From the IMG/VR virus record IMGVR_UViG_3300045988_122921: a stretch of 38,017 bases of DNA; one strand, 5' to 3'. Below the pieces are notes generated by a model. That model was not told where the DNA came from. It did no database searches and worked only from the letters and a program-made list of their open reading frames with translations. The translations under genes and the position numbers were made by a program. The stretch is from a virus. Numbering within the stretch: the first letter of the stretch is position 1; the number at the start of each line of letters is the position of its first letter. Below are positions 2,935-37,508 of the stretch, piece after piece.

Positions 2935-3049
2935 ATTATATATTGCATATTGCATAATTGCAACAAAAATAATTGCATAAATGCAACTTTTTTGTTGACT
3001 GATAACATTCAAGGTGGTATATTACAAATATCAAGTCGCATAAATGCGA
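2935..3049. promoter_or_regulatory. Immunity switch: divergent promoters plus three 14-bp operators
   Basis: Rightward promoter: TTGACT (2995-3000), 17 nt, TATATT (3018-3023). Leftward promoter: TTGCAA (rc 2958-2963), 17 nt, TATAAT (rc 2935-2940). Operators fit T(T/C)GCAT-AA-(A/T)TGC(A/G)A at 2950-2963, 2973-2986 and 3036-3049. Confidence 0.7.
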
Positions 3050-3069
3050 TTTTAGAGAGAGGTGTTATA

Positions 3070-3333
3070 ATGATTAATGTTGCTAAATTAAAAGGCCTAA
3101 TTGTTGAAAGAGGAACGACCCAACAAGCTGTAGCTGATTCTATTGGTATAGACAGAAGTACTTTCTACAGAAAAATGAAAAAAGGTGGAGATTTTTCTAT
3201 AGAAGAGGCAAAAGGCATTAAAGAACAGATTCCGTTATCAGATGCAGAAGCGATAGAAATTTTTTTTGGTAAAGAAGTCGCATTTACGCTACAAAGAAAA
3301 GGTTTAGGGGTGGGAACTGATGACCACGTTTGA
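3070..3333 (+). CDS. Cro-like small HTH regulator (87 aa)
   Basis: MINVAKLKGLIVERGTTQQAVADSIGIDRSTFYRKMK is an HTH. ATG 3070 follows GAGAGAGGTG. Divergent from the repressor. The upstream part of track ORF 2716-3333 is antisense to cI. Confidence 0.85.
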   Translation: MINVAKLKGLIVERGTTQQAVADSIGIDRSTFYRKMKKGGDFSIEEAKGIKEQIPLSDAEAIEIFFGKEVAFTLQRKGLGVGTDDHV

Positions 3334-3616
3334 AGAAGCGCTAAAACCATTGTTTGATCAGTGGTTAGAGGAAGCATTGCCAGAAATAGGGTGTAGGTTT
3401 AGACAGGAGATTGAATTGGAGCTAGATGCTAAAAACCAACAAACATTATTCAATCAAACGGAAATGGCGAAACGGCAAGGTGTTTCTGTAGAAACATTTA
3501 GAAAATGGCGGAAAGCTGGCTTGCAAGCAGAACCTAATCCTACTGGTAAATTGTTATTTGATTTAAATAAAGTTAATAACTGGCGAAAAGATAATGTTGC
3601 TAAGAAAGAACTTTAA
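3320..3616 (+). CDS. Small DNA-binding protein, excisionase/MerR-like HTH (candidate Xis)
   Basis: FNQTEMAKRQGVSVETFRKWRKAGL matches an HTH_17-like motif. Located in the early operon. Confidence 0.55.
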   Translation: MTTFEEALKPLFDQWLEEALPEIGCRFRQEIELELDAKNQQTLFNQTEMAKRQGVSVETFRKWRKAGLQAEPNPTGKLLFDLNKVNNWRKDNVAKKEL

Positions 3617-3806: not shown

Positions 3807-4024
3807 TTTTCATTTGTTAAATTTTCAGGCAATTCGTTATTTGTAATAGTCTTGAAAAAGTCTAGATAGGCTTGAGCAACTTCTTTAGTTGTAACAGGAT
3901 TACCTTTCACAGAAGTTCGGCCAATTTCATTTGATATTTCAGAATTATGTGCTAACCATGCGACTACAAGGTCAACAGCTAATTCGTTTTTTCTTTTATT
4001 AGTCTGTTCCAATATTTTCACCAC
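3800..4024 (-). CDS. Hypothetical protein, 74 aa, transcribed against the early operon
   Basis: Track ORF with a GTG start and a weak RBS. Opposite orientation suggests an inserted moron. Confidence 0.45.
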   Translation of the reverse strand: MVKILEQTNKRKNELAVDLVVAWLAHNSEISNEIGRTSVKGNPVTTKEVAQAYLDFFKTITNNELPENLTNENQ

Positions 4025-4088
4025 CTTATGAATTATTTCAGCAGACCATTTGCTGATAAGAAAATTATACCAGAAAGGAAATAAACAA

Positions 4089-4304
4089 ATGAGTGAATTA
4101 AAACCATACTATGCAGAAATGTCTAAAGAAGAGTTAATCAAAATAATTGAGCATCAACATCAGGAACTTCTAATTATTGATGCGATAAAAAATGAATACA
4201 AAAAGCATTTAGAGCAAGTGATTGTTTATCATTCAGTAGAAAATTATCGTGATACAGTCCGAAAAAATAGAGAAGTAGCTGTAACTACTCCTCAAAAAAA
4301 CTAA
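4089..4304 (+). CDS. Hypothetical protein, 71 aa (MSELKPYYAEMSKEELIKIIEHQ...)
   Basis: ATG 4089 follows GAAAGGAA. It shares the 28-nt leader AATTATACCAGAAAGGAA.TAAAC.AAATG with the Rha gene at 4573. Confidence 0.6.
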   Translation: MSELKPYYAEMSKEELIKIIEHQHQELLIIDAIKNEYKKHLEQVIVYHSVENYRDTVRKNREVAVTTPQKN

Positions 4305-4519
4305 CCGTGATGACAAGGTTTACAACAATAATAACAACCATCGAACTTAAACCCTCTGCCAGCGTTGGCTTCTTCAAGCGACTGAATAGCTGCATGGCAA
4401 GAAGAATATTCGCCCACTACCAATTGTCGTTCTGTAGATGGTAGGTATTTACATGTTGAAACATGCACTTCGTGTAACCCCTTATCGTCTGCTTGTTTGT
4501 TACAAATATAAGTAAACAT
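4301..4519 (-). CDS. Small Cys/His-rich putative metal-binding protein, 72 aa
   Basis: MFTYICNKQ...HEVHVSTCKYLP...CHAAIQSLEEANAGRGFKFDGCYYCCKPCHHG. ATG 4519 follows a GAGGTG RBS. The motif resembles small Ada-Zn-binding-like proteins, from memory only. Confidence 0.6.
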   Translation of the reverse strand: MFTYICNKQADDKGLHEVHVSTCKYLPSTERQLVVGEYSSCHAAIQSLEEANAGRGFKFDGCYYCCKPCHHG

Positions 4520-4572
4520 AATATTTTTCACCTCGCTTTCAAAATAATTATACCAGAAAGGAAGTAAACCAA

Positions 4573-5283
4573 ATGACAAATTTAGTAATTATGAAAAACC
4601 AGCAAGCAGTAACAAGTAGTTTACAAGTTGCAGAAACTTTCGGAAAAGAACACAAAGTTGTTCTAAAAGCCATTGATGAATTAAAAGAGGGGGTGGCACA
4701 AAATTATGCCGACCTATTTTACGAAGATACCTACATTCATCCACAAAACAAACAATCTTATCGCCAAGTTATTATGAATCGCGACGGCTTCACTTTGTTA
4801 GCAATGGGGTTCACTGGTCAAAAAGCTTTGCAATTTAAATTGAAATATATTGAAGCTTTTAATCAAATGGAAAAAGAAATTCAACAGCCTAAACTTCCAA
4901 CCTCGCAAAGACAATTGGCGATGCTTGCTTTATCAGCAAATGAAGAAACAAATGAGCGTGTAGATGTAATTGAAAAAGAAGTAGCCGACTTAAAAGACAA
5001 TCAAAAAATCGGTGCAGATGATTATGGCTACTTATCACGTCGAGTTCATCAACGAGTAGCAGAAGTAGCAAGAGGATTTGGAAAAATCACAAAGGAACAG
5101 CGTGGCAAGCTATACAAAGATATTAATTCAGGTATTAAGCAAATCACAGGCGTGGGGACCCGATCACAATTAAGAGAAAAACATTATCCAATGGTAATTG
5201 AATATATCAATGACTGGGAGCCGTCCACAGCCACAAAAACAGTTGTAAGACAAATGAGTTTTGACTTAAACGACATAGCGTAG
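4573..5283 (+). CDS. Rha-family phage regulatory protein / antirepressor (Rha N-domain plus ORF6C-like C-domain)
   Basis: N-terminus LVIMKNQQAVTSSLQVAETFGKEHKVVLKAIDEL is the Rha signature. The coiled C-terminal domain is typical of antirepressors. Confidence 0.8.
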   Translation: MTNLVIMKNQQAVTSSLQVAETFGKEHKVVLKAIDELKEGVAQNYADLFYEDTYIHPQNKQSYRQVIMNRDGFTLLAMGFTGQKALQFKLKYIEAFNQMEKEIQQPKLPTSQRQLAMLALSANEETNERVDVIEKEVADLKDNQKIGADDYGYLSRRVHQRVAEVARGFGKITKEQRGKLYKDINSGIKQITGVGTRSQLREKHYPMVIEYINDWEPSTATKTVVRQMSFDLNDIA

Positions 5284-14992: not shown

Positions 14993-15163
14993 ATGCTAAG
15001 TTATCCAGAAGTTTATATCTTAGGCCGTCAAGTAGACGGCGTGTATGTTGAGTACCTGCATGGAGCAGAGCAAGCCGATTTATTTTTCGATTATACAATT
15101 GCTCGTGATGAAAGAAATCATATGAATAAAACCAATACAAAAGATGGCGAATGGAGAATTTAA
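14993..15163 (+). CDS. Small hypothetical protein, 56 aa (MLSYPEVYILGRQVDGVYVEYLHGAEQADLFF...)
   Basis: Not in the track. GGAGGA RBS 6 nt upstream. It displaces the antisense track ORF 14970-15179. Confidence 0.55.
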   Translation: MLSYPEVYILGRQVDGVYVEYLHGAEQADLFFDYTIARDERNHMNKTNTKDGEWRI

Positions 15164-15242
15164 AAATACGGGAGGCCAATTACATTGGAGTTTTAACTTA
15201 TTGCAACTTTTTTACAATAACTAGCTGATTTTTTGCAAACAA

Positions 15243-15429
15243 AAAGCCAGCCGACCAATGGCTGACTAATGTGGTAGTTAGCACTTTTCCCAAGTAAAGT
15301 GCTAATAGTGCCAACAAATAAGGTTGACATTGTGTCTCTGGTGGAGACAGGAACTATCGATAACTGTTTTCCGCCAGTTATCATAGAAAAGGAGAAATTT
15401 ATTTCAGAAATAAAATCCCCAAGAAAGTT
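15243..15429 (-). ncRNA. Candidate ~185-nt structured sRNA divergent from arpU
   Basis: Minus-strand extended -10 TGATATAAT (rc 15436-15444). Four hairpins: 15359-15382 (8 bp), 15333-15349 (6 bp), 15278-15305 (10 bp), and 15245-15267 followed by a U-tract as terminator. A single-stranded UUUCUCCUUUUC anti-SD-like tract is present. The only ORF here (15193-15384) has no RBS and runs through the hairpins. Confidence 0.45.
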
Positions 15430-15510
15430 AATATGATTATATCATGAGTAAATGTATTTGAAAATACTATCTCATAGTACGTATTGTAAAAAGTTTATTT
15501 AGTAGAAAAT

Positions 15511-15534
15511 AAAAAAAGCCAGATTGCTCCGGCT
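15511..15534 (-). terminator. Minus-strand terminator-like hairpin upstream of the sRNA promoter
   Basis: rc reads AGCCGGAGCAATCTGGCT followed by TTTTTTT. It could insulate the sRNA unit from antisense transcripts. Confidence 0.35.
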
Positions 15535-15585
15535 GTGAGAAATATTTTCGACATAGTTATTATACCACAAAAGGAGCGATTCCAC

Positions 15586-16002
15586 TTGATTCAATTGCTA
15601 AAAGAAGTAGATTTTCGACAAACAAAAGCGAATGCCAGAAATGTGTTGAAGAATTTTAGACGTTTAGAGCGAATAGCTGGTCGCTCTTTGATAGATTTAA
15701 AATCACCAATTATTACAGATATGCCTAAAAGCCAAAGTCATGGGAACAAAGCAGAAGATGCGCTAGTACAATTAGCAGATGCAGAAGCAGAAAGAGACGC
15801 AATTTTATCTGGGCTTATGGCATTAAGCCTAACTAGCAGACAAATTTTGCACTATAGTTTCTGTGTGCAGGACCATTACTCTAATTACAAGATTGCTAGA
15901 GAAGTCGGCTATTCCGAAAGAAGTATTCAAAGAATGAAATCAGAAGCTTTGATTGAATTCGCAGAAGCTTACCGCAATGGAAAAATAATTGCCTATAAAT
16001 AA
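15586..16002 (+). CDS. arpU: ArpU-family late-gene transcriptional regulator (RinA/LtrC superfamily, sigma region-4-like C-terminus)
   Basis: LTSRQILHYSF...YKIAREVGYSERSIQRMKSEALIEFAEAY. Start taken at TTG 15586, 9 nt after AAGGAG. It sits immediately upstream of the packaging region, as in related Gram-positive phages. Confidence 0.8.
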   Translation: MIQLLKEVDFRQTKANARNVLKNFRRLERIAGRSLIDLKSPIITDMPKSQSHGNKAEDALVQLADAEAERDAILSGLMALSLTSRQILHYSFCVQDHYSNYKIAREVGYSERSIQRMKSEALIEFAEAYRNGKIIAYK

Positions 16003-16006
16003 AATT

Positions 16007-16062
16007 TTGGCGGTTTTTTGGCGGAAAGTTGGCGGTTTTTATACGAATTTGAGTGCTAATAT
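16007..16062 (+). promoter_or_regulatory. Three TTGGCGG repeats at exact 11-bp phasing, plus an extended -10 TGCTAATAT
   Basis: TTGGCGG at 16007, 16018 and 16029. TGCTAATAT at 16054-16062. Starts 5 nt after the arpU stop. Confidence 0.5.
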
Positions 16063-16067
16063 AGTAA

Positions 16068-16216
16068 CATCGAAAGTCAAAGAAATGGACACATTACACA
16101 ACACTTTCTGGTTTAGTCACCGTTTGATTTGACTTTCGATGGTCACTTGCAGACATACGTTCTCAATAAAATGAAGTGAGGTGAATAACCTCCTCTTTTT
16201 TCTACAAGTTTGCAAG
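16068..16216 (+). ncRNA. Structured promoter-proximal RNA element, unit 1
   Basis: A perfect 14-bp helix (16068-16081 with 16128-16141) encloses the GTTTAGTCAC motif. GAGG-7nt-CCTC hairpin plus T6 at 16178-16201. A 9-bp outer helix (16145-16153 with 16208-16216). Paralogous to unit 2. Confidence 0.5.
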
Positions 16217-16275
16217 GGATATATTTGGCGATTGCTAGCATATGCAAAAAAAGACAGACAGAAAGGAAGATTTAT

Positions 16276-16539
16276 ATGTTATTGCAAATTGATAAGTTTA
16301 ATAAAAAAGAATTAGAAGGTAAAGAAGCAGCGAAACTTTTAGTGGACTATATCGGAGGGGTTTCAGGGACTTCTTGTGATAGTGACGCAGTTAAAGTTTT
16401 TAACAATAGTAACCCGATTGTCATTACATTTGGCAAGGAGCAAACAACTGCAATTAACCTGCCATATTACGAAGATTTTAAAATTGTTGCAGTATGGCTC
16501 TTAAATGATGAAGGTAAAACACTTCGTAAATTAATATAA
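16276..16539 (+). CDS. Hypothetical protein, 87 aa (MLLQIDKFNKKELEGKEAAKLLVDYIGG...)
   Basis: ATG 16276 follows GAAAGGAAG. Protein-like composition. It is the only credible CDS inside the RNA island. Confidence 0.55.
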   Translation: MLLQIDKFNKKELEGKEAAKLLVDYIGGVSGTSCDSDAVKVFNNSNPIVITFGKEQTTAINLPYYEDFKIVAVWLLNDEGKTLRKLI

Positions 16540-16598
16540 AATAAGCAGTGTTCAATTTGCTTCGGCACTGGAATTGGTTGCTTTTAAGTAGCCATTTG

Positions 16599-16668
16599 CT
16601 ACACTTTTTATACCTTTTTTATACACTTTATCTACACTTCATATACCTTCTAAACGGGTTATTATGAT
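16599..16668 (+). promoter_or_regulatory. Five phased (C/A)TAC(A)CTT repeats plus a -10-like TATGAT
   Basis: ACACTT or ACCTT cores begin at 16601, 16613, 16623, 16634 and 16645 (spacing 10-12 bp). TATGAT at 16663-16668 aligns with the unit-1 -10 region. Confidence 0.4.
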
Positions 16669-16674
16669 AGTGTC

Positions 16675-16887
16675 AAAAAAATAAGAAATGCGACACACTT
16701 ACACAAATACATTAACGGAACGATTGCCTACTTATTTTTTTGATTTGAGATTACAAGGAAGTAAAAAAATCTACTTTCTTCGTTTAGTCACTTGTGATCT
16801 CATTTAGATTCTCTCGCAAACCACCAATTATAAAACTAAAGAAGTGAGGTGAATTTCCTCTCTCTTTTTTCTACAGGTTTGCGAGAG
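16675..16887 (+). ncRNA. Structured promoter-proximal RNA element, unit 2
   Basis: Shares AAGAAATG(C)GACACA(Y)TTACACAA, CTTTCT..GTTTAGTCAC, and GAAGTGAGGTGAAT..CCTC..TTTTTTCTACA.GTTTGC with unit 1. Extra nested helices at 16746-16754 with 16794-16802, and 16755-16763 with 16772-16780. A 12-bp outer helix (16811-16822 with 16876-16887). Confidence 0.5.
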
Positions 16888-16896
16888 TTAAGTTTA

Positions 16897-17026
16897 GTCA
16901 CTGTGGCGGAATAGGTAGACGCTCGTACGTGAGATTAGACATTGGAACAACGTATAAGTTCGTATGTAGGGCTTTGGCCCATCGGATAAATCTAATCATG
17001 CAAGGTGCAAATCCTTGCCAGTGACA
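16897..17026 (+). ncRNA. 130-nt tRNA-like RNA: Leu-type D-arm and perfect acceptor and T stems, with the anticodon arm replaced by a ~78-nt structured insert
   Basis: Acceptor GTCACTG/CAGTGAC (7 bp). TG, then GCGG-AATAGGTAG-ACGC as in class II tRNA-Leu. T arm GCAAGG-TGCAAAT-CCTTGC, where G occupies the normally U55 position. Central 7-bp helix GATTAGA/TCTAATC encloses hairpins. No canonical anticodon loop. Confidence 0.5.
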
Positions 17027-17146
17027 TAATCATTTTAGCCGTGAAAGTCTGCGAAAGCTACGTCCTGATGGGAAAACATTCTGACGAGAGTGTGTAAAGG
17101 TTAATTTGATTTATTAGCAATTGCTAGAAGGTAGCTCCTTCTGGTA

Positions 17147-17220
17147 TGGCGTGTAGCTCAATTGGTGAGAGCGGTTGATTTTTAATCAAGTACATGCAGG
17201 TTCGACTCCTGTCCCGCCAA
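17147..17220 (+). tRNA. tRNA-Lys (anticodon UUU), divergent phage copy
   Basis: Cloverleaf TGGCGTG-TA-GCTC-AATTGGTGA-GAGC-G-GTTGA-TTTTTAA-TCAAG-TACAT-GCAGG-TTCGACT-CCTGT-CCCGCCA-A. It has a 6:67 U/C mismatch, a 27:43 G/G mismatch, U32, and no encoded CCA. Confidence 0.75.
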
Positions 17221-17280
17221 TAAGTGGCAAAACCACTTAAATAAATTAGGAAACGTCAATAGATGTTTCTTTCCTTCACG

Positions 17281-17311
17281 AGAGGCATCCGCTTGCGGGA
17301 TGTCTCTTTTT
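17281..17311 (+). terminator. Rho-independent terminator closing the tRNA unit
   Basis: 10-bp stem AGAGGCATCC/GGATGTCTCT (one G-U) followed by TTTTT. Confidence 0.7.
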
Positions 17312-17317
17312 ACATAC

Positions 17318-17417
17318 AAAAAAACCACCAGTGAAATTAATCATGGGTGGTTAGGTAGCTAGTACGATATGAGGAATTTCATGTGCAAGAAATTTTCTAA
17401 GGTATGTTGCTACCCGT
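17318..17417 (-). ncRNA. Candidate ~100-nt sRNA A (minus strand)
   Basis: Extended -10 TGCTATAAT (rc 17424-17432). Body closed by GGUAGC/GCUACC. Then UAACC, a hairpin (17323-17352) and U7. Confidence 0.5.
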
Positions 17418-17465
17418 GAATAAATTATAGCAAATCATTCATTAATTGTCTTGTCAGAAGCACAT

Positions 17466-17575
17466 AAAAAACCGCTAGTGGTGACATACTAGCGGTTAGG
17501 TAGCAAATTATGTGTCTTTTCATTGAATTATGAATTACATAAGGTGTTGATTAAAAATAAAAGGAGTTGCTACCT
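17466..17575 (-). ncRNA. Candidate ~110-nt sRNA B (minus strand), paralogue of A
   Basis: Extended -10 TGTTATAAT (rc 17582-17590). A 9-11-bp closing helix (17496-17506 with 17567-17577). A 9-bp terminator stem ACCGCTAGT/ACTAGCGGT (17471-17496) plus a U-run. Contains a CUCCUUUU tract. Confidence 0.5.
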
Positions 17576-17655
17576 AATAAAATTATAACAAATAAGAATG
17601 AAGAATAAAAGAGATTGCCTTGATGGCTTCTTTTTTTGTTTGGAGGGAATGAAGG

Positions 17656-17880
17656 ATGGATAATTATTGGTACATATCTCTGAACCACCATTATCCGAAA
17701 CCCATGAAAAACCAACATAAACGGGTAGTAATGTCGGTGCAGATTAAGAAAGACTATTCCATCATTGAGATGACACGAGAAGCTACACCACAAGAAATTG
17801 ACTATTGCAAGTTGCTATATTGCGGTCATGGGTGTTGGAATGACAAGCATGTACAAGAGAATATAAGTAAATACAGATGA
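17656..17880 (+). CDS. Hypothetical protein, 74 aa, Cys-rich C-terminus
   Basis: Track ORF with a GGAGGG RBS. First ORF of the late operon. Confidence 0.55.
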   Translation: MDNYWYISLNHHYPKPMKNQHKRVVMSVQIKKDYSIIEMTREATPQEIDYCKLLYCGHGCWNDKHVQENISKYR

Positions 17881-17920: not shown

Positions 17921-18685
17921 ATGTCTAGAGCTAGAAATCCAAATAGAGAAAAGGCAAAACATCTTTGGTTAGAATCTGAAGGAACAAAGAAATTAAAAGA
18001 TATCGCAATTGAATTAGGTGTTACAGATTCCACTATTAGAAAATGGAAATCTCAAGATAAGTGGGACACTACAATGAAACGGAGCGCTCCGATTGAAACG
18101 GAACGTTACGATACGCTTAAAGGCAATAAAAATGCCCAAGGGAATAAAGGCGGTTCGCCCCCTAAGGGGAATAAGAACGCAGTTAAACACGGAATTTTTG
18201 CTAAGTGGATGCCGGAAGAGACAATAGAAATAATGGAGACCGTTTCCCAATCAGAACCGGCAGATATTCTTTGGAATAACATTATGATTCAATATACAGC
18301 CATTATCCGATCACAACAGATTATGTACGTCAATGATGTCGGAGATATCTCAAAAGAGGAGTCGGGTTGGTCATCTGGCGAAAGTGGAAGCAGTTCTACT
18401 ATGCAAGTTCAATACGCGTGGGATAAACAAGCTAACTTTTTAGCCGCCCAATCTCGAGCAATGGGAACACTATCAAATTTAATTAAACAATTTGTAGCTA
18501 TCGCAGACGAAGCCGATGAACGAAGAGCAAAATTAAGCTTGATAACTGCGAAGATGGAAAAAACACAAGCAGAAGCGAAAATACTTACGAATCAGGCCGA
18601 TAAGTTAACTGCTGGAGGCAAAGCGAACGAATTGTTAGAAGCTTTGCTCAACGTTAAATCACGAGGTGTGAACAATGACAATTAA
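17921..18685 (+). CDS. terS: Terminase small subunit
   Basis: N-terminal HTH (KLKDIAIELGVTDSTIRKWKSQDKW), located directly upstream of terL and overlapping it. Confidence 0.85.
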   Translation: MSRARNPNREKAKHLWLESEGTKKLKDIAIELGVTDSTIRKWKSQDKWDTTMKRSAPIETERYDTLKGNKNAQGNKGGSPPKGNKNAVKHGIFAKWMPEETIEIMETVSQSEPADILWNNIMIQYTAIIRSQQIMYVNDVGDISKEESGWSSGESGSSSTMQVQYAWDKQANFLAAQSRAMGTLSNLIKQFVAIADEADERRAKLSLITAKMEKTQAEAKILTNQADKLTAGGKANELLEALLNVKSRGVNNDN

Positions 18686-37434: not shown

Positions 37435-37508
37435 GGACCATTAGCTCAGTTGGTTAGAGCCAATCGCTCATAACGGTTAGGCCACAGGTTCGAGTCCTGT
37501 ATGGTCCA
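37435..37508 (+). tRNA. tRNA with CAU anticodon (elongator Met, or Ile2 if lysidine-modified)
   Basis: GGACCAT-TA-GCTC-AGTTGGTTA-GAGC-C-AATCG-CTCATAA-CGGTT-AGGCC-ACAGG-TTCGAGT-CCTGT-ATGGTCC-A is a canonical cloverleaf. It is not initiator-like (1:72 is paired, and there is no GGG/CCC anticodon stem). Confidence 0.9.

What the first reader, a model, noticed from the sequence alone, without database searches (positions are those of the whole stretch)
16003..17655. A 1.65-kb RNA island between the late regulator and terS; possible large ornate ncRNA (ROOL/GOLLD class) or a new phage RNA locus
From the arpU stop (16002) to the first late ORF (17656) there is only one credible small CDS (16276-16539). 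The rest is dense in RNA-type signals:
- two paralogous structured elements just downstream of promoter-like sequences
- a 130-nt tRNA-like RNA
- a tRNA-Lys
- several hairpins and a terminator
- two convergent minus-strand sRNA units.

The very large structured RNAs GOLLD and ROOL were described largely in Lactobacillales prophages and metagenomes. They typically sit next to tRNA genes or enclose them, and GOLLD rises with lytic induction. This genomic context fits. I cannot recall their consensus well enough to assign or exclude membership, so the island may also be an undescribed RNA system.
Basis: partly seen in the sequence, partly recalled or inferred. Interest (0 to 1): 0.85.

Follow-up and report, generated by a model that had tools for sequence, protein, structure and literature searches.

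The report
Phage late-operon leader packed with small RNAs
The 1.65-kb stretch is not one giant RNA but the leader of an Enterococcus prophage's late operon, made of swappable small-RNA modules, one of which is an apparently undescribed tRNA-shaped RNA that carries a different insert in different phages.

Summary
The RNA-dense island is real, but it is not a ROOL or GOLLD RNA. Rfam 15 finds only tRNA-Lys here, even at E<=10.

The window is an E. faecalis Phifelvirus-like prophage. The island is mosaic:
- three TTGGCGG ArpU boxes, a late promoter and structured leader A
- a small accessory gene (phrog_9473)
- element B, a relic of a second ArpU-type gene end with its own repeats, promoter and leader
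- a 130-nt tRNA-like RNA (TLS)
- tRNA-Lys(UUU) and a terminator
- two antisense sRNA genes.

In sister phages with 95-97% identical ArpU, the same slot holds a true ROOL (263 bits), about 10 nt upstream of a TLS.

The most interesting part is the TLS. Its core resembles tRNA-Leu: a 7-bp acceptor stem, a 6-bp T stem, and the bases that form the tertiary contacts of the tRNA core conserved. It has no anticodon arm. At least 12 unrelated inserts of 0-230 nt occupy it across Enterococcus, Listeria, Facklamia and Clostridia-type contigs. Covariation is strong, and no Rfam family matches it.

The function is inferred: late-expressed RNAs released by tRNA-processing enzymes, possibly for counter-defence.

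The parts
15586..16002 (+). arpU late activator gene (context; lies just upstream of the island)
   Evidence: phrog_248 'transcriptional activator', E 9e-46. The arpU region is about 96% identical in DNA to phiFL2A, covering gp33. phiFL2A ArpU is required for late gene expression (PMC3753634).
16007..16035 (+). Three TTGGCGG direct repeats with 11-bp spacing: the ArpU binding boxes
   Evidence: Exact matches at 16007, 16018 and 16029. The identical repeats in phiFL2A (L001) were shown to be required for ArpU-dependent terS transcription and to bind ArpU in EMSA (PMC3753634).
16038..16065 (+). Predicted ArpU-dependent late promoter core (TTTATA-16-TATAGT, overlapping TGcTAATAT). Predicted start at about 16069-16072.
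   Evidence: Promoter-like site. Its position directly after the boxes is read. The transcription start is inferred, not mapped.
16068..16141 (+). Leader A hairpin P1 (perfect 14-bp stem), carrying the conserved CUUUCU..GUUUAGUCAC motif
   Evidence: Inverted repeat I5, 16068-16081 with 16128-16141, 100% complementary. Fold. GTTTAGTCAC occurs exactly three times, all inside the island. The motif is also present in B-type and A'-type leaders.
16142..16220 (+). Leader A 3' module. An outer helix (16142-16154 with 16208-16220) encloses an SD-like hairpin, GAGGUGAAUAACCUC (16178-16192), followed by a U-run.
   Evidence: Terminator-like site. Covariation of the outer helix across 12 leader variants: 93% of cells paired against 38-52% when slid, and 4 pairs with changes on both sides.
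16276..16539 (+). 87-aa accessory gene of unknown function
   Evidence: phrog_9473, E 3e-43. Present only in the window, L008, L013 and L028 among the related loci.
16550..16591 (+). Relic: the last 13 codons plus stop of a second, divergent arpU-family gene
   Evidence: tblastn gives 100% identity to residues 160-172 of the 172-aa L117 4430-4948 protein (phrog_248, E 7e-29). No other part of that gene is in the window.
16592..16665 (+). Direct repeats (CTACAC/TATACC, about 11-bp spacing) and a promoter-like site (TTCATA-16-TATTAT) belonging to the lost regulator. Probably an orphan promoter.
   Evidence: Sequence. Promoter-like site at 16638-16665. The arrangement directly after the intact regulator gene in L117 is the same.
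16672..16888 (+). Leader B. Two long hairpins, then a 3' module whose outer helix (16811-16822 with 16876-16887) encloses the SD-like hairpin and U-run. Paralogue of leader A.
   Evidence: Fold z -5.0. Repeat families D1 and D2. 97-98% identical copies in L008, L094, L110, L117, L125, L126 and L138. Covariation.
16897..17026 (+). TLS, a tRNA-like scaffold RNA. Layout: acceptor GUCACUG/CAGUGAC, tRNA-Leu-like D arm, a 75-nt branched insert where the anticodon and variable arms would be, a 6-bp T stem, T loop UGCAAAU, discriminator A, and no encoded CCA.
   Evidence: Fold. Not called by ARAGORN or Rfam. The same scaffold carries at least 12 different inserts in other phages and bacteria. Scaffold covariation: 98.3% of cells paired, 10 of 16 pairs with changes on both sides, 28-43% paired when slid. 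Acceptor pairing reappears without being required.
17027..17146 (+). Conserved spacer (pre-tRNA leader) ending in a 10-bp hairpin just before the tRNA
   Evidence: Fold z -3.2. 97-100% identical in many sister loci, always between a TLS and a tRNA.
17147..17220 (+). tRNA-Lys(UUU)
   Evidence: ARAGORN. Rfam tRNA, 58.3 bits. In other phages this slot holds Arg(ACG), Arg(UCG), Glu(UUC), Ile, Asp or Ser tRNAs.
17221..17313 (+). Three hairpins. The last one (about 17280-17308) is an 11-bp stem followed by a U-run: an intrinsic-terminator-like end of the RNA array.
   Evidence: Fold z -6.2. Conserved as the 'tail' module after the tRNA in most sister loci.
17322..17452 (-). Antisense sRNA unit 1. 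Promoter AAGACA-17-TATAAT with an upstream TG (17452-17424). The RNA, about 17417-17322, has a GGUAGC/GCUACC closing stem and a terminator.
   Evidence: Promoter scan. Fold z -5.1. Family members.
17465..17590 (-). Antisense sRNA unit 2. Extended -10 TGTTATAAT (17590-17582). The RNA, about 17577-17465, has a 10-bp closing stem, a CUCCUU single-stranded stretch and a terminator.
   Evidence: Terminator at 17497-17470. Fold z -5.9. 39 sequence variants of the family were found; in ArpU-oriented loci they are on the minus strand only, in 38 of 60 loci.
17656..17880 (+). First late ORF (74 aa, unknown function), followed by terS at 17921
   Evidence: phrog_1202, E 2e-41. terS matches PF10668, E 7.5e-23. 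No promoter-like site was found on the + strand between 16666 and 17950.

Best explanation
The interval is the transcribed 5' leader and accessory-RNA slot of the ArpU-dependent late operon of an Enterococcus faecalis Phifelvirus-type prophage. It is a string of independent, exchangeable modules, not one large RNA.

**Proposed sequence of events**
1. On induction, ArpU binds the three TTGGCGG boxes directly after its own stop codon. This step is shown experimentally for phiFL2A, whose arpU-box region is about 96% identical in DNA.
2. ArpU fires a promoter whose transcript starts at about 16069-16072 (inferred).
3. That transcript runs through structured leader A, the small accessory gene, the orphan promoter-leader relic B, the tRNA-like RNA, tRNA-Lys and terminator-like hairpins, then on to orf74 and terS.
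4. RNase P and RNase Z cut at the tRNA-shaped elements. This releases the TLS and the tRNA and creates the 5' end of the late mRNA (inferred; it fits the published 5' end).
5. The two minus-strand sRNA genes are transcribed against this leader. In the lysogen they would oppose leaky late transcription or pair with the leader (inferred).

**The TLS.** It has a tRNA-Leu-like L-shaped core with the anticodon arm replaced by a variable insert. It most likely acts as a stable, processable carrier for that insert. Together with the variable tRNA next to it, it would form a late-expressed accessory or counter-defence RNA set (speculative).
For: **No large-RNA family match**
- Rfam finds no ROOL, GOLLD or other family apart from tRNA.

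**Mosaic structure across 80 ArpU loci**
- Leader A is almost always directly after arpU.
- After it come, in different combinations: ROOL, a TLS of different sizes, the spacer, a tRNA, the tail, minus-strand sRNAs and orf74-terS.
- The window-specific accessory gene plus B is an insertion between leader A and the TLS. L008 carries the same accessory-gene-plus-B insertion.

**Late promoter next to the ArpU boxes**
- TTGGCGG occurs three times with 11-bp spacing.
- In phiFL2A the three repeats are essential for ArpU-dependent terS expression and bind ArpU.
- RinA or LtrC boxes fused to the phiFL2A intergenic region also drive terS (PMC3753634).
- No other promoter-like site lies on the + strand between 16666 and terS.

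**Processing at the tRNA**
- The only mapped phiFL2A terS 5' end is a G 118 bp upstream of the ATG. That is L001:3030, 3 nt after the 3' end of the island tRNA (L001 2955-3027). This is what tRNA 3' processing of a long leader would give.

**B is a relic**
- It keeps the last 13 codons of a second phrog_248 gene, followed by that gene's repeats and leader.

**The TLS is a real structured family**
- It shows strong covariation, and the bases that make the tertiary contacts of the tRNA core (U8, A14, U54, C56, A58) are invariant. G18 and G19 are kept in all but the reduced D-arm forms.
- It appears in temperate phages and in virulent Schiekvirus phages. There it sits inside tRNA clusters, 2 nt after a tmRNA or tRNA.

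**The adjacent tRNA is itself a cassette**
- Its anticodon identity changes between near-identical phages.
Against: - No transcript data were available for this phage. The start site, co-transcription and processing are all inferred.
- Several terminator-like hairpins lie between the proposed promoter and terS (16178-16192, 16847-16861 and about 17280-17308), as do two opposing sRNA genes. How late transcription gets through is unexplained. The published 5' end could instead be a true start activated from a distance.
- The T stem has 6 bp, giving a 13-bp acceptor/T stack, and position 55 is G rather than U. Handling by RNase P or Z, the CCA-adding enzyme or LeuRS is therefore not guaranteed.
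- The commonest TLS form in this phage group is a 52-nt version without insert and with a reduced D loop (14 of 25 TLS-bearing ArpU loci). That form could be a decaying remnant.
- No target or partner was identified for the insert or for the sRNAs.
Confidence: 0.7

Rival explanations
1. The whole interval, or most of it, is one large ornate RNA of the ROOL/GOLLD class or a new class of that kind.
For: - The genomic context is right: a prophage, next to tRNAs, at the head of the late operon. ROOL and GOLLD are described as lying near tRNA islands in phages.
- Sister phages have ROOL in exactly this slot.
- Folding z-scores are high throughout the island.
Against: - No ROOL or GOLLD match even at E<=10.
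- The interval contains a conserved protein gene, a gene relic, terminator-like hairpins and promoter-like sites, and two genes on the opposite strand.
- Its parts occur separately and in other combinations in related phages.
Confidence: 0.03
2. The TLS is only a decaying class II tRNA pseudogene or a recombination scar, and the inserts are junk that accumulated at a recombination hot spot. The island has no RNA function beyond the tRNA and the late promoter.
For: - The commonest local form is a 52-nt stump with a shortened D loop.
- 35 of 60 fully sampled ArpU loci have no TLS at all.
- The window itself shows recombination debris in the form of relic B.
- Folding z-scores of the inserts on their own are mostly unremarkable.
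Against: - The scaffold is kept with compensatory changes in 6 of 7 acceptor pairs and 3 of 6 T-stem pairs. These are seen across Enterococcus, Facklamia, Listeria, Ructibacterium and other contigs.
- The bases that make the tertiary contacts of the tRNA core are invariant.
- The same 130-nt TLS, insert included, is 98-99% identical in otherwise unrelated temperate phages and 150-kb virulent phages.
- Related inserts show compensatory changes, for example GAGC/GCUC against GGGC/GCCC between the 115-nt and 116-nt forms.
Confidence: 0.15
3. The RNA array (leader B, TLS, tRNA, terminator) is a separate ncRNA operon with its own promoter. orf74/terS has a distinct ArpU-responsive start close to terS, so the island is not part of the late mRNA leader.
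For: - There is a promoter-like site at 16638-16665.
- A strong terminator-like hairpin at about 17280-17308 meets the convergent terminator of sRNA1 at 17322.
- The phiFL2A authors read the -118 end as a transcription start. They also found that Pcad read-through does not reach terS.
Against: - The B promoter sits behind repeats that belong to a regulator the window lacks.
- No promoter-like site was found on the + strand between 16666 and 17950.
- In phiFL2A the ArpU boxes that are essential for terS expression lie about 760 nt upstream of the mapped end, while that end lies 3 nt after a tRNA.
- Foreign Ltr boxes placed at the far end of the phiFL2A intergenic region still activate terS.
Confidence: 0.15

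Closest known systems
ROOL RNA (Rfam RF03087) and GOLLD RNA loci in phages and prophages
   Same: - Same kind of place: a prophage, co-oriented with and adjacent to tRNA genes, at the start of the late region.
- In sister phages ROOL occupies this very slot, about 10 nt upstream of a TLS.
- The literature describes both RNAs as lying near tRNA islands, and GOLLD as induced during lysis.
   Different: - The window has no ROOL or GOLLD sequence or structure.
- Its RNAs are several small units (about 95-220 nt) rather than one multi-junction RNA of 580-800 nt.
Ltr (RinA/ArpU/LtrC) late promoters of Gram-positive temperate phages; phiFL2A ArpU (Quiles-Puchalt et al. 2013, PMC3753634)
   Same: - Three 7-nt direct repeats directly after the activator gene, identical to those of phiFL2A.
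- The same activator family.
- The same order: arpU, intergenic region, terS.
   Different: - The intergenic region was treated there as 'terminator plus terS promoter'. Here it is resolved into leader, TLS, tRNA and tail.
- The published start site coincides with the tRNA 3' end.
- The window's region is twice as long, because of the accessory gene, relic B and the two antisense sRNA genes.
tRNA-like ncRNAs released by tRNA-processing enzymes: mascRNA from MALAT1, engineered 'tRNA scaffolds', and the T4 stable RNAs C and D in its tRNA cluster (recalled from general knowledge, not tested here)
   Same: - An acceptor/T-arm minihelix with an elbow and no decoding function.
- It sits directly downstream of another RNA (leader, ROOL, tmRNA or tRNA). 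RNase P cleavage at its 5' end would therefore also define the upstream RNA's 3' end.
- The insert sits where engineered scaffolds place their cargo.
   Different: - A natural bacterial-virus family with a class II (tRNA-Leu-like) D arm, a 6-bp T stem, T loop UGCAAAU and a hypervariable insert.
- Processing has not been shown.
Canonical tRNA-Leu and other class II tRNAs
   Same: - D arm UGGCGGAAUAGGUAGACGC, U8, A14, G18G19, C56, A58 and discriminator A73.
- LeuRS identity rests on A73 and the tertiary core, and the anticodon arm is dispensable for charging (PMC2377443).
   Different: - No anticodon arm.
- A 13-bp rather than 12-bp acceptor/T stack.
- G55 instead of U55.
- It is not detected by ARAGORN. 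Only one variant reaches the Rfam tRNA threshold (L098, 29.8 bits).
Phage promoter-proximal antitermination systems: lambda Q with pR'-6S RNA-tR', and HK022 put RNA (general knowledge)
   Same: - The late regulator gene is directly followed by the late promoter.
- A conserved structured leader and a terminator-like hairpin come before the late genes.
- Read-through from upstream is blocked, while activator-driven transcription reaches terS.
   Different: - There is no evidence that ArpU or the leader modifies RNA polymerase.
- ArpU is described as a DNA-binding activator.
- The leader has no sequence relation to put or qut.
Phage-encoded tRNAs used against tRNA-targeting defence, for example tRNA-Lys variants against anticodon nucleases or PARIS (general knowledge)
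   Same: - A single tRNA (Lys-UUU here) in a small temperate phage.
- The identity of the tRNA in this slot changes between near-identical phages: Lys, Glu, Arg, Asp, Ile or Ser. Some copies have odd 6-nt anticodon loops.
   Different: - No defence system or cleavage was examined.
- The TLS has no anticodon loop to be cleaved or to replace a cleaved tRNA.

Membership tests
ROOL RNA (RF03087) | Covariance-model score at or above the gathering threshold (99.1 bits) | tested here: not met
   No ROOL match in the window at the gathering threshold or at E<=10 over 15100-17750. The same search finds ROOL at 263-264 bits in sister loci L037, L072 and L116, so the method works on this phage group.
ROOL RNA (RF03087) | One contiguous RNA of about 580 nt with multistem junctions and pseudoknots | tested here: not met
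   The interval splits into independently occurring modules and contains a CDS and opposite-strand genes.
ROOL/GOLLD | Genomic context: phage or prophage, next to tRNA genes | tested here: met
   tRNA-Lys at 17147-17220. The window is a Phifelvirus-like prophage. ROOL occupies the orthologous slot in sister phages.
GOLLD RNA (RF01998) | Covariance-model match | tested here: not met
   No match at E<=10 in the window. None in 33 related loci scanned.
tRNA (RF00005), applied to the 130-nt element | Covariance-model score of at least 29 bits, or an ARAGORN call | tested here: not met
   No tRNA hit over 16897-17026 at E<=10. ARAGORN fails with relaxed scores and with introns allowed. One variant with a different insert just reaches 29.8 bits (L098).
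tRNA (RF00005), applied to the 130-nt element | 7-bp acceptor stem, D arm and T arm, with the tertiary-core bases U8, A14, G18, G19, U54, C56 and A58 | tested here: met
   Alignment A1 has T8, A14, T35 (=U54), C37 (=C56) and A39 (=A58) invariant. G18/G19 are present in all but the reduced D-arm forms. 98.3% of cells are paired and 10 of 16 pairs covary.
tRNA (RF00005), applied to the 130-nt element | Anticodon arm (5-bp stem, 7-nt loop) and a 12-bp acceptor/T stack | tested here: not met
   In its place are a roughly 10-nt linker and a branched 65-nt domain. The T stem has 6 bp, supported by G-C/A-U and C-G/U-A exchanges. Minimal 52-nt members have nothing at this position.
tRNA (RF00005), applied to 17147-17220 | Covariance-model and ARAGORN call with an anticodon | tested here: met
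   58.3 bits; ARAGORN calls tRNA-Lys(ttt).
Ltr/ArpU-dependent late promoter | [quoted passage not shown] | tested here: met
   TTGGCGG at 16007, 16018 and 16029, starting 5 nt after the arpU stop. Identical to phiFL2A.
Ltr/ArpU-dependent late promoter | Activator binding, and activator-dependent terS transcription | not testable with these tools
   Shown for phiFL2A by EMSA, repeat replacement and reporter fusions (PMC3753634). Inferred here from the near-identical sequence.
YrlA / Y RNA-like (RF02553) and tmRNA | Covariance-model match | tested here: not met
   The YrlA match is 18.8 bits against a gathering score of 69, and it lies over the tRNA-Lys, not the TLS. ARAGORN tmRNA mode finds nothing.
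Type I toxin-antitoxin RNA pair, considered for the minus-strand units | A small hydrophobic toxin ORF opposite or overlapping the antisense RNA; a match to a known family | tested here: not met
   No ORF of 30 aa or more on the + strand in 17320-17655. No Rfam match. Sister loci do carry rli28/RatA-type pairs elsewhere in the slot.

The most novel reading that the evidence does not exclude
The TLS may be a natural 'tRNA scaffold'. Its conserved tRNA-Leu-like L-shaped core would be recognised and trimmed by tRNA-processing enzymes, and perhaps charged by LeuRS.
- Firmicute phages would use this core to express, stabilise and exchange unrelated structured RNA inserts of 0-230 nt as late-phase effectors. 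These could be decoys or inhibitors of host defence or of tRNA-targeting enzymes.
- It often sits beside ROOL and next to a variable tRNA.

A second new reading that the evidence does not exclude: late transcription from Ltr/ArpU promoters is terminator-resistant, through the conserved leader RNA or the activator. That would explain how it crosses several terminators and two opposing sRNA genes.
Probability: 0.3. Interest if true: 0.8.

Novelty: new variant of a known kind. Interest (0 to 1): 0.6.

Why it matters
**A possible lead on ROOL and GOLLD.**
- ROOL and GOLLD are abundant, structurally solved phage RNAs with no known function.
- In Enterococcus phages, ROOL occupies an exchangeable slot at the very start of the ArpU-dependent late transcript. 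It lies about 10 nt upstream of a tRNA-shaped element.
- That gives a concrete, genetically tractable model (phiFL2A-type prophages) for how these RNAs are made and what they are exchanged with. The proposal is co-transcription with late genes, with 3' ends set by RNase P.

**A candidate new RNA class.** The TLS family has a conserved tRNA core and a hypervariable insert, and it spans temperate and virulent phages of several Firmicute genera.

**A re-reading of published data.** The published late 'start site' of phiFL2A appears to be a tRNA-processing end. This raises the question of how late transcription passes several terminators.

Tried and rejected
- **Rfam, all 4227 families.** I scanned the window (gathering and E<=10) and 33 related loci. 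Nothing matched the TLS, leaders A and B, the spacer or the antisense sRNAs. Weak matches (Ref1C, YrlA, FMN, CRISPR-DR38, EF3314_EF3315) are all far below their thresholds.
- **tRNA with an intron.** ARAGORN with introns allowed and relaxed scores does not call the TLS. Inserts of 190-230 nt are not group I introns by Rfam. The 52-nt members have no anticodon arm at all, so splicing could not yield a tRNA.
- **Hammerhead-like CUGAUGA/GAAA motifs in the spacer.** No ribozyme family matched.
- **Small ORFs starting at the GUG inside the SD-like hairpins of A and B.** The similarity of the peptides follows from the nucleotide repeat, and there is no proper SD-to-start spacing. Not pursued.
- **Trans targets.** I ran RNAduplex of sRNA1, sRNA2 and the insert against 61 translation-initiation regions. 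Only long, bulged duplexes resulted, with one apparent outlier at 3321-3405. Judged unconvincing.
- **GenBank phage BLAST of the minus-strand units.** No match. Relatives were found only by a pattern search in IMG/VR.
- **Genome-wide pattern scan.** The pattern was too degenerate, and most of the 95 hits are chance. Only the hits that also had the D-arm motif were kept.
- **Literature searches.** No described tRNA-like RNA of Enterococcus phages turned up.

Full report
**What the window is.** The region around the finding is about 96% identical to Enterococcus faecalis temperate phages phiFL2A, phiFL2B and phiFL1A over arpU and the sequence just after it. The gene ending at 16002 belongs to the ArpU late-activator family (phrog_248, E 9e-46). 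The gene at 17921 is a small terminase subunit (PF10668). The interval 16003-17655 is therefore the arpU-terS intergenic region of a Phifelvirus-like prophage. It is about twice as long as in phiFL2A, where it spans 794 nt.

**Check of the observation.** All the listed features are there.
- The only ORF of 60 aa or more is 16210/16276-16539. It is a genuine phage protein family of unknown function (phrog_9473).
- The two paralogous elements are linked by repeat families D1 and D2. They fold much better than shuffled controls (z -3.9 and -5.0).
- The tRNA-like element is at 16897-17026.
- tRNA-Lys(UUU) is at 17147-17220.
- Three hairpins, the last with a U-run, fill 17221-17313 (z -6.2).
- Two minus-strand units with TGnTATAAT promoters and hairpin-plus-U-run ends lie at 17322-17452 and 17465-17590.

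**ROOL and GOLLD.** cmscan against all 4227 Rfam 15 families finds only the two tRNAs of the window at the gathering threshold. At E<=10 over 15100-17750 nothing but tRNA-Lys is significant, and there is no partial ROOL or GOLLD match. The same search works on this phage group. In L037, whose ArpU is 97% identical in protein, ROOL scores 263 bits (E 5e-59) at 3810-4388. It is also found in L072 and in the large-phage contig L116, and by BLAST in L041, L043 and L044. In L037 the order is:
- arpU 3001-3417
- boxes and leader, to about 3800
- ROOL 3810-4388
- tRNA-like element 4399-4683
- tRNA 4738-4808
- tail, then a minus-strand sRNA, then orf74.

ROOL therefore sits in exactly the slot that the accessory gene and element B fill in the window. 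L072 has both ROOL and a tRNA-like element with the window's insert. It matches the published description of ROOL and GOLLD as phage RNAs near tRNA islands. The window, however, does not contain such an RNA.

**The interval is mosaic.** I BLASTed the window's modules against 80 IMG/VR loci that encode close ArpU relatives.
- Leader A, or a longer A' variant, follows arpU in nearly all of them.
- After it, modules combine freely: ROOL in 5 loci; the tRNA-like element in 25 of 60 fully sampled loci, or a plain tRNA directly after the leader; then spacer, tRNA, tail, minus-strand sRNAs (38 of 60) and orf74-terS.
- The accessory gene occurs in only L008, L013, L028 and the window.
- This pattern, together with an internal CDS and opposite-strand genes, rules out a single large RNA.

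**Element A is the late promoter and its leader.**
- TTGGCGG occurs three times at 16007, 16018 and 16029, starting 5 nt after the arpU stop. The sequence is the same in phiFL2A.
- For phiFL2A, Quiles-Puchalt et al. (PMC3753634) showed three things. Deleting arpU abolishes late gene expression. Replacing the three repeats abolishes ArpU-dependent terS transcription. ArpU binds the repeat region.
- A promoter-like site with an extended -10 follows at 16038-16065 (sequence). This predicts a start at about 16069-16072, at the foot of a perfect 14-bp hairpin (16068-16141).
- The leader ends in a module that is conserved in every leader type. A 12-13-bp outer helix encloses an invariant Shine-Dalgarno-like hairpin (GAGGUGA...CCUC) followed by a U-run.
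- Across 12 variants the outer helix is 91% paired, with compensatory U-A/C-G and G-C/A-U exchanges. Slid controls give 38-52% paired for the whole structure.
- A second conserved motif, CUUUCU..GUUUAGUC, sits in an upstream hairpin of the A, B and A' leaders.
- The role of the leader is not established. It could be a leaky terminator that insulates late genes, a 5' stabiliser, a processing site, or part of an antitermination device.

**Element B is a relic of a second late promoter.**
- In L117 a 97% identical copy of B follows a 172-aa protein of the same activator family (phrog_248, E 7e-29). That protein is only 25% identical to the window's ArpU.
- The window keeps just the last 13 codons of that gene (16550-16588). 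Then come that regulator's own direct repeats (CTACAC/TATACC, about 11-bp spacing), a promoter-like site (16638-16665) and leader B. The rest of the gene is absent.
- The 'two paralogous structured elements downstream of promoter-like sequences' are therefore two late promoter-leader cassettes. One is served by the resident ArpU. The other was orphaned by recombination.

**The late transcript probably runs through the whole island.**
- No promoter-like site lies on the + strand between 16666 and terS.
- In phiFL2A the boxes essential for terS expression lie about 760 nt upstream of the only mapped 5' end of terS mRNA, a G 118 bp before the ATG.
- That G is L001:3030, 3 nt after the 3' end of the island tRNA (L001 2955-3027). 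This suggests a tRNA-processing end rather than a primary start.
- RinA or LtrC boxes fused to the phiFL2A intergenic region also give activator-dependent expression in S. aureus. This places the core promoter next to the boxes.
- The same paper reports that read-through from an upstream Pcad promoter does not reach terS without the activator.
- Together with the terminator-like hairpins in the island, this leaves open how late transcription passes them. Terminator-resistant transcription is one possibility, but I could not test it.

**The tRNA-like element (TLS).**
- *Where it occurs.* BLAST shows the 130-nt element, insert included, at 98-99% identity in 150-kb virulent Schiekvirus phages. 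There it sits inside tRNA clusters, 2 nt after a phage tmRNA or a tRNA. Other phages match only its two ends.
- *Variable insert.* Collecting all copies gives one scaffold with at least 12 unrelated inserts of 0, 25, 37, 43, 51, 57, 60, 66, 69, 72, 75, 83, 103, 105, 150, 194 and 222-230 nt.
- *Host range.* Copies come from Enterococcus phages and prophages and from Facklamia, Listeria fleischmannii, E. villorum, E. columbae, Ructibacterium (two in tandem), Caccosoma and one misassigned-looking MAG.
- *Covariation.* With the inserts removed, 26 distinct scaffolds align over 55 columns. A cloverleaf without anticodon arm is 98.3% paired, against 28-43% when slid. Ten of 16 pairs change on both sides, including 6 of 7 acceptor pairs and 3 of 6 T-stem pairs. 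My first collection required acceptor complementarity. A second pass that required only the D-arm and T-loop motifs still found 7/7 acceptor pairing in 13 of 15 distinct combinations.
- *Scaffold features.* The D arm (UGGCGGAAUAGGUAGACGC) is of the tRNA-Leu type. U8, A14, G18G19, U54, C56 and A58 are conserved, and the discriminator is mostly A. Three features depart from a tRNA. The T stem has 6 bp, giving a 13-bp acceptor/T stack. Position 55 is G. There is no anticodon arm.
- *Insert geometry.* A linker of about 10 nt is followed by a helix whose 3' strand ends 2 nt before the T stem. The insert therefore sits where a class II variable arm would be.
- *Not detected by standard tools.* ARAGORN and Rfam do not detect the family, apart from one variant at 29.8 bits. 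I found no description of it in the searchable literature.
- *Possible charging.* LeuRS identity rests on A73 and the tertiary core, and does not need the anticodon arm (PMC2377443). Charging is therefore conceivable, but the G55 change touches one of those contacts.

**The neighbouring tRNA and the antisense sRNAs.**
- The tRNA after the TLS is Lys(UUU) here. In otherwise near-identical phages it is Arg(ACG), Arg(UCG), Glu(UUC), Ile, Asp or Ser. Some copies have 6-nt anticodon loops. The tRNA is thus a cassette too.
- The two minus-strand units belong to a family of at least 39 sequence variants. Their layout is a promoter, 5' GGUAGCAAC(UCCUU), a variable AU-rich middle, GCUACCUARCC, and a terminator.
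- In ArpU-oriented loci the family is found only on the strand opposite to the late operon, between the tRNA tail and orf74. The RNAs are fully complementary to the late leader.
- Their conserved single-stranded CUCCUU resembles an anti-Shine-Dalgarno seed. No convincing trans target was found.

**Most likely mechanism.**
1. *Shown for phiFL2A:* ArpU binds the boxes and switches on late transcription.
2. *Inferred:* the transcript starts next to the boxes and carries the leader, the accessory gene, relic B, the TLS, the tRNA and the tail ahead of orf74/terS.
3. *Inferred:* RNase P and RNase Z excise the two tRNA-shaped RNAs. This also trims the RNAs upstream (ROOL, tmRNA or tRNA in other phages) and downstream (the late mRNA).
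4. *Inferred:* the antisense sRNA genes and the terminators keep late genes silent in the lysogen.
5. *Speculative:* the TLS insert and the variable tRNA are late-phase accessory RNAs, plausibly directed at host tRNA-targeting or other defence functions. The grounds are that they vary between near-identical phages and spread between unrelated ones.

**Verdict.**
- ROOL/GOLLD membership is rejected for this window, but the slot is a genuine ROOL slot in sister phages.
- The island contains at least two recurrent RNA families that no Rfam model detects: the TLS and the antisense sRNAs. It also contains a conserved late leader.
- It is best classed as a new variant of a known kind, namely phage tRNA/ncRNA islands and tRNA-like RNAs. 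Interest is moderate to high, mainly because of the tRNA-shaped scaffold with exchangeable inserts and its tight linkage to ROOL and to the late promoter.

Noticed in passing
L001 (phiFL2A) 2955-3030; corresponds to window 17147-17224: The published 5'-RACE 'transcription start' of phiFL2A terS is a G 118 bp upstream of the ATG (PMC3753634). It falls 3 nt after the 3' end of the island tRNA, so it looks like a tRNA-processing end rather than a primary start.
   Followed up: partly
L003 2653-3132; L004 53-607; L119: Virulent Schiekvirus phages encode a tmRNA (Rfam 145 bits; tag AKNEELLAVA in L003). The tRNA-like element starts 2 nt after its 3' end, inside a cluster of more than 10 tRNAs.
   Followed up: partly
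L057 4320-4629; L090 10643-10957: Sister loci carry type I toxin-antitoxin-like RNAs (Rfam rli28 143-148 bits, RatA 50-55 bits, BsrG-like). In L057 they lie in the same arpU-terS slot.
   Followed up: no
L110 2136-2210 (also L094, L129, L138); L121 2737-2808: The tRNA after the TLS in these phages has a 6-nt anticodon loop. ARAGORN calls it 'tRNA-?(Lys|Lys)(tt)' or 'tRNA-?(Ser|Phe)(ga)'. It may be a decoding-defective or nuclease-evading variant.
   Followed up: no
L229 3251-3407; L217 (two copies); L208: One TLS insert contains an internal hairpin that looks like a GGTTCGAATCC T arm. Two genomes carry two TLS in tandem.
   Followed up: no
window 15193-15534, minus strand: Upstream of arpU lies a 63-aa minus-strand ORF (phrog_18457) with two minus-strand terminator-like sites (15245-15267 and 15517-15534). 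There is also a weak Ref1C-like match (23 bits against a gathering score of 90). L037 has two Ref1C-like matches of 39-41 bits in the same area.
   Followed up: no
window 37435-37508: A second tRNA gene (tRNA-Met CAU, 65.7 bits) lies near the end of the window. It could mark the prophage boundary or attachment site.
   Followed up: no
window 17380-17420 (+ strand): Opposite sRNA1, the + strand has a good Shine-Dalgarno sequence (GAGGA) 6 nt before an ATG that opens a 12-codon ORF (MCKKFSKVCCYP). sRNA1 would cover this site. It may be coincidental.
   Followed up: no
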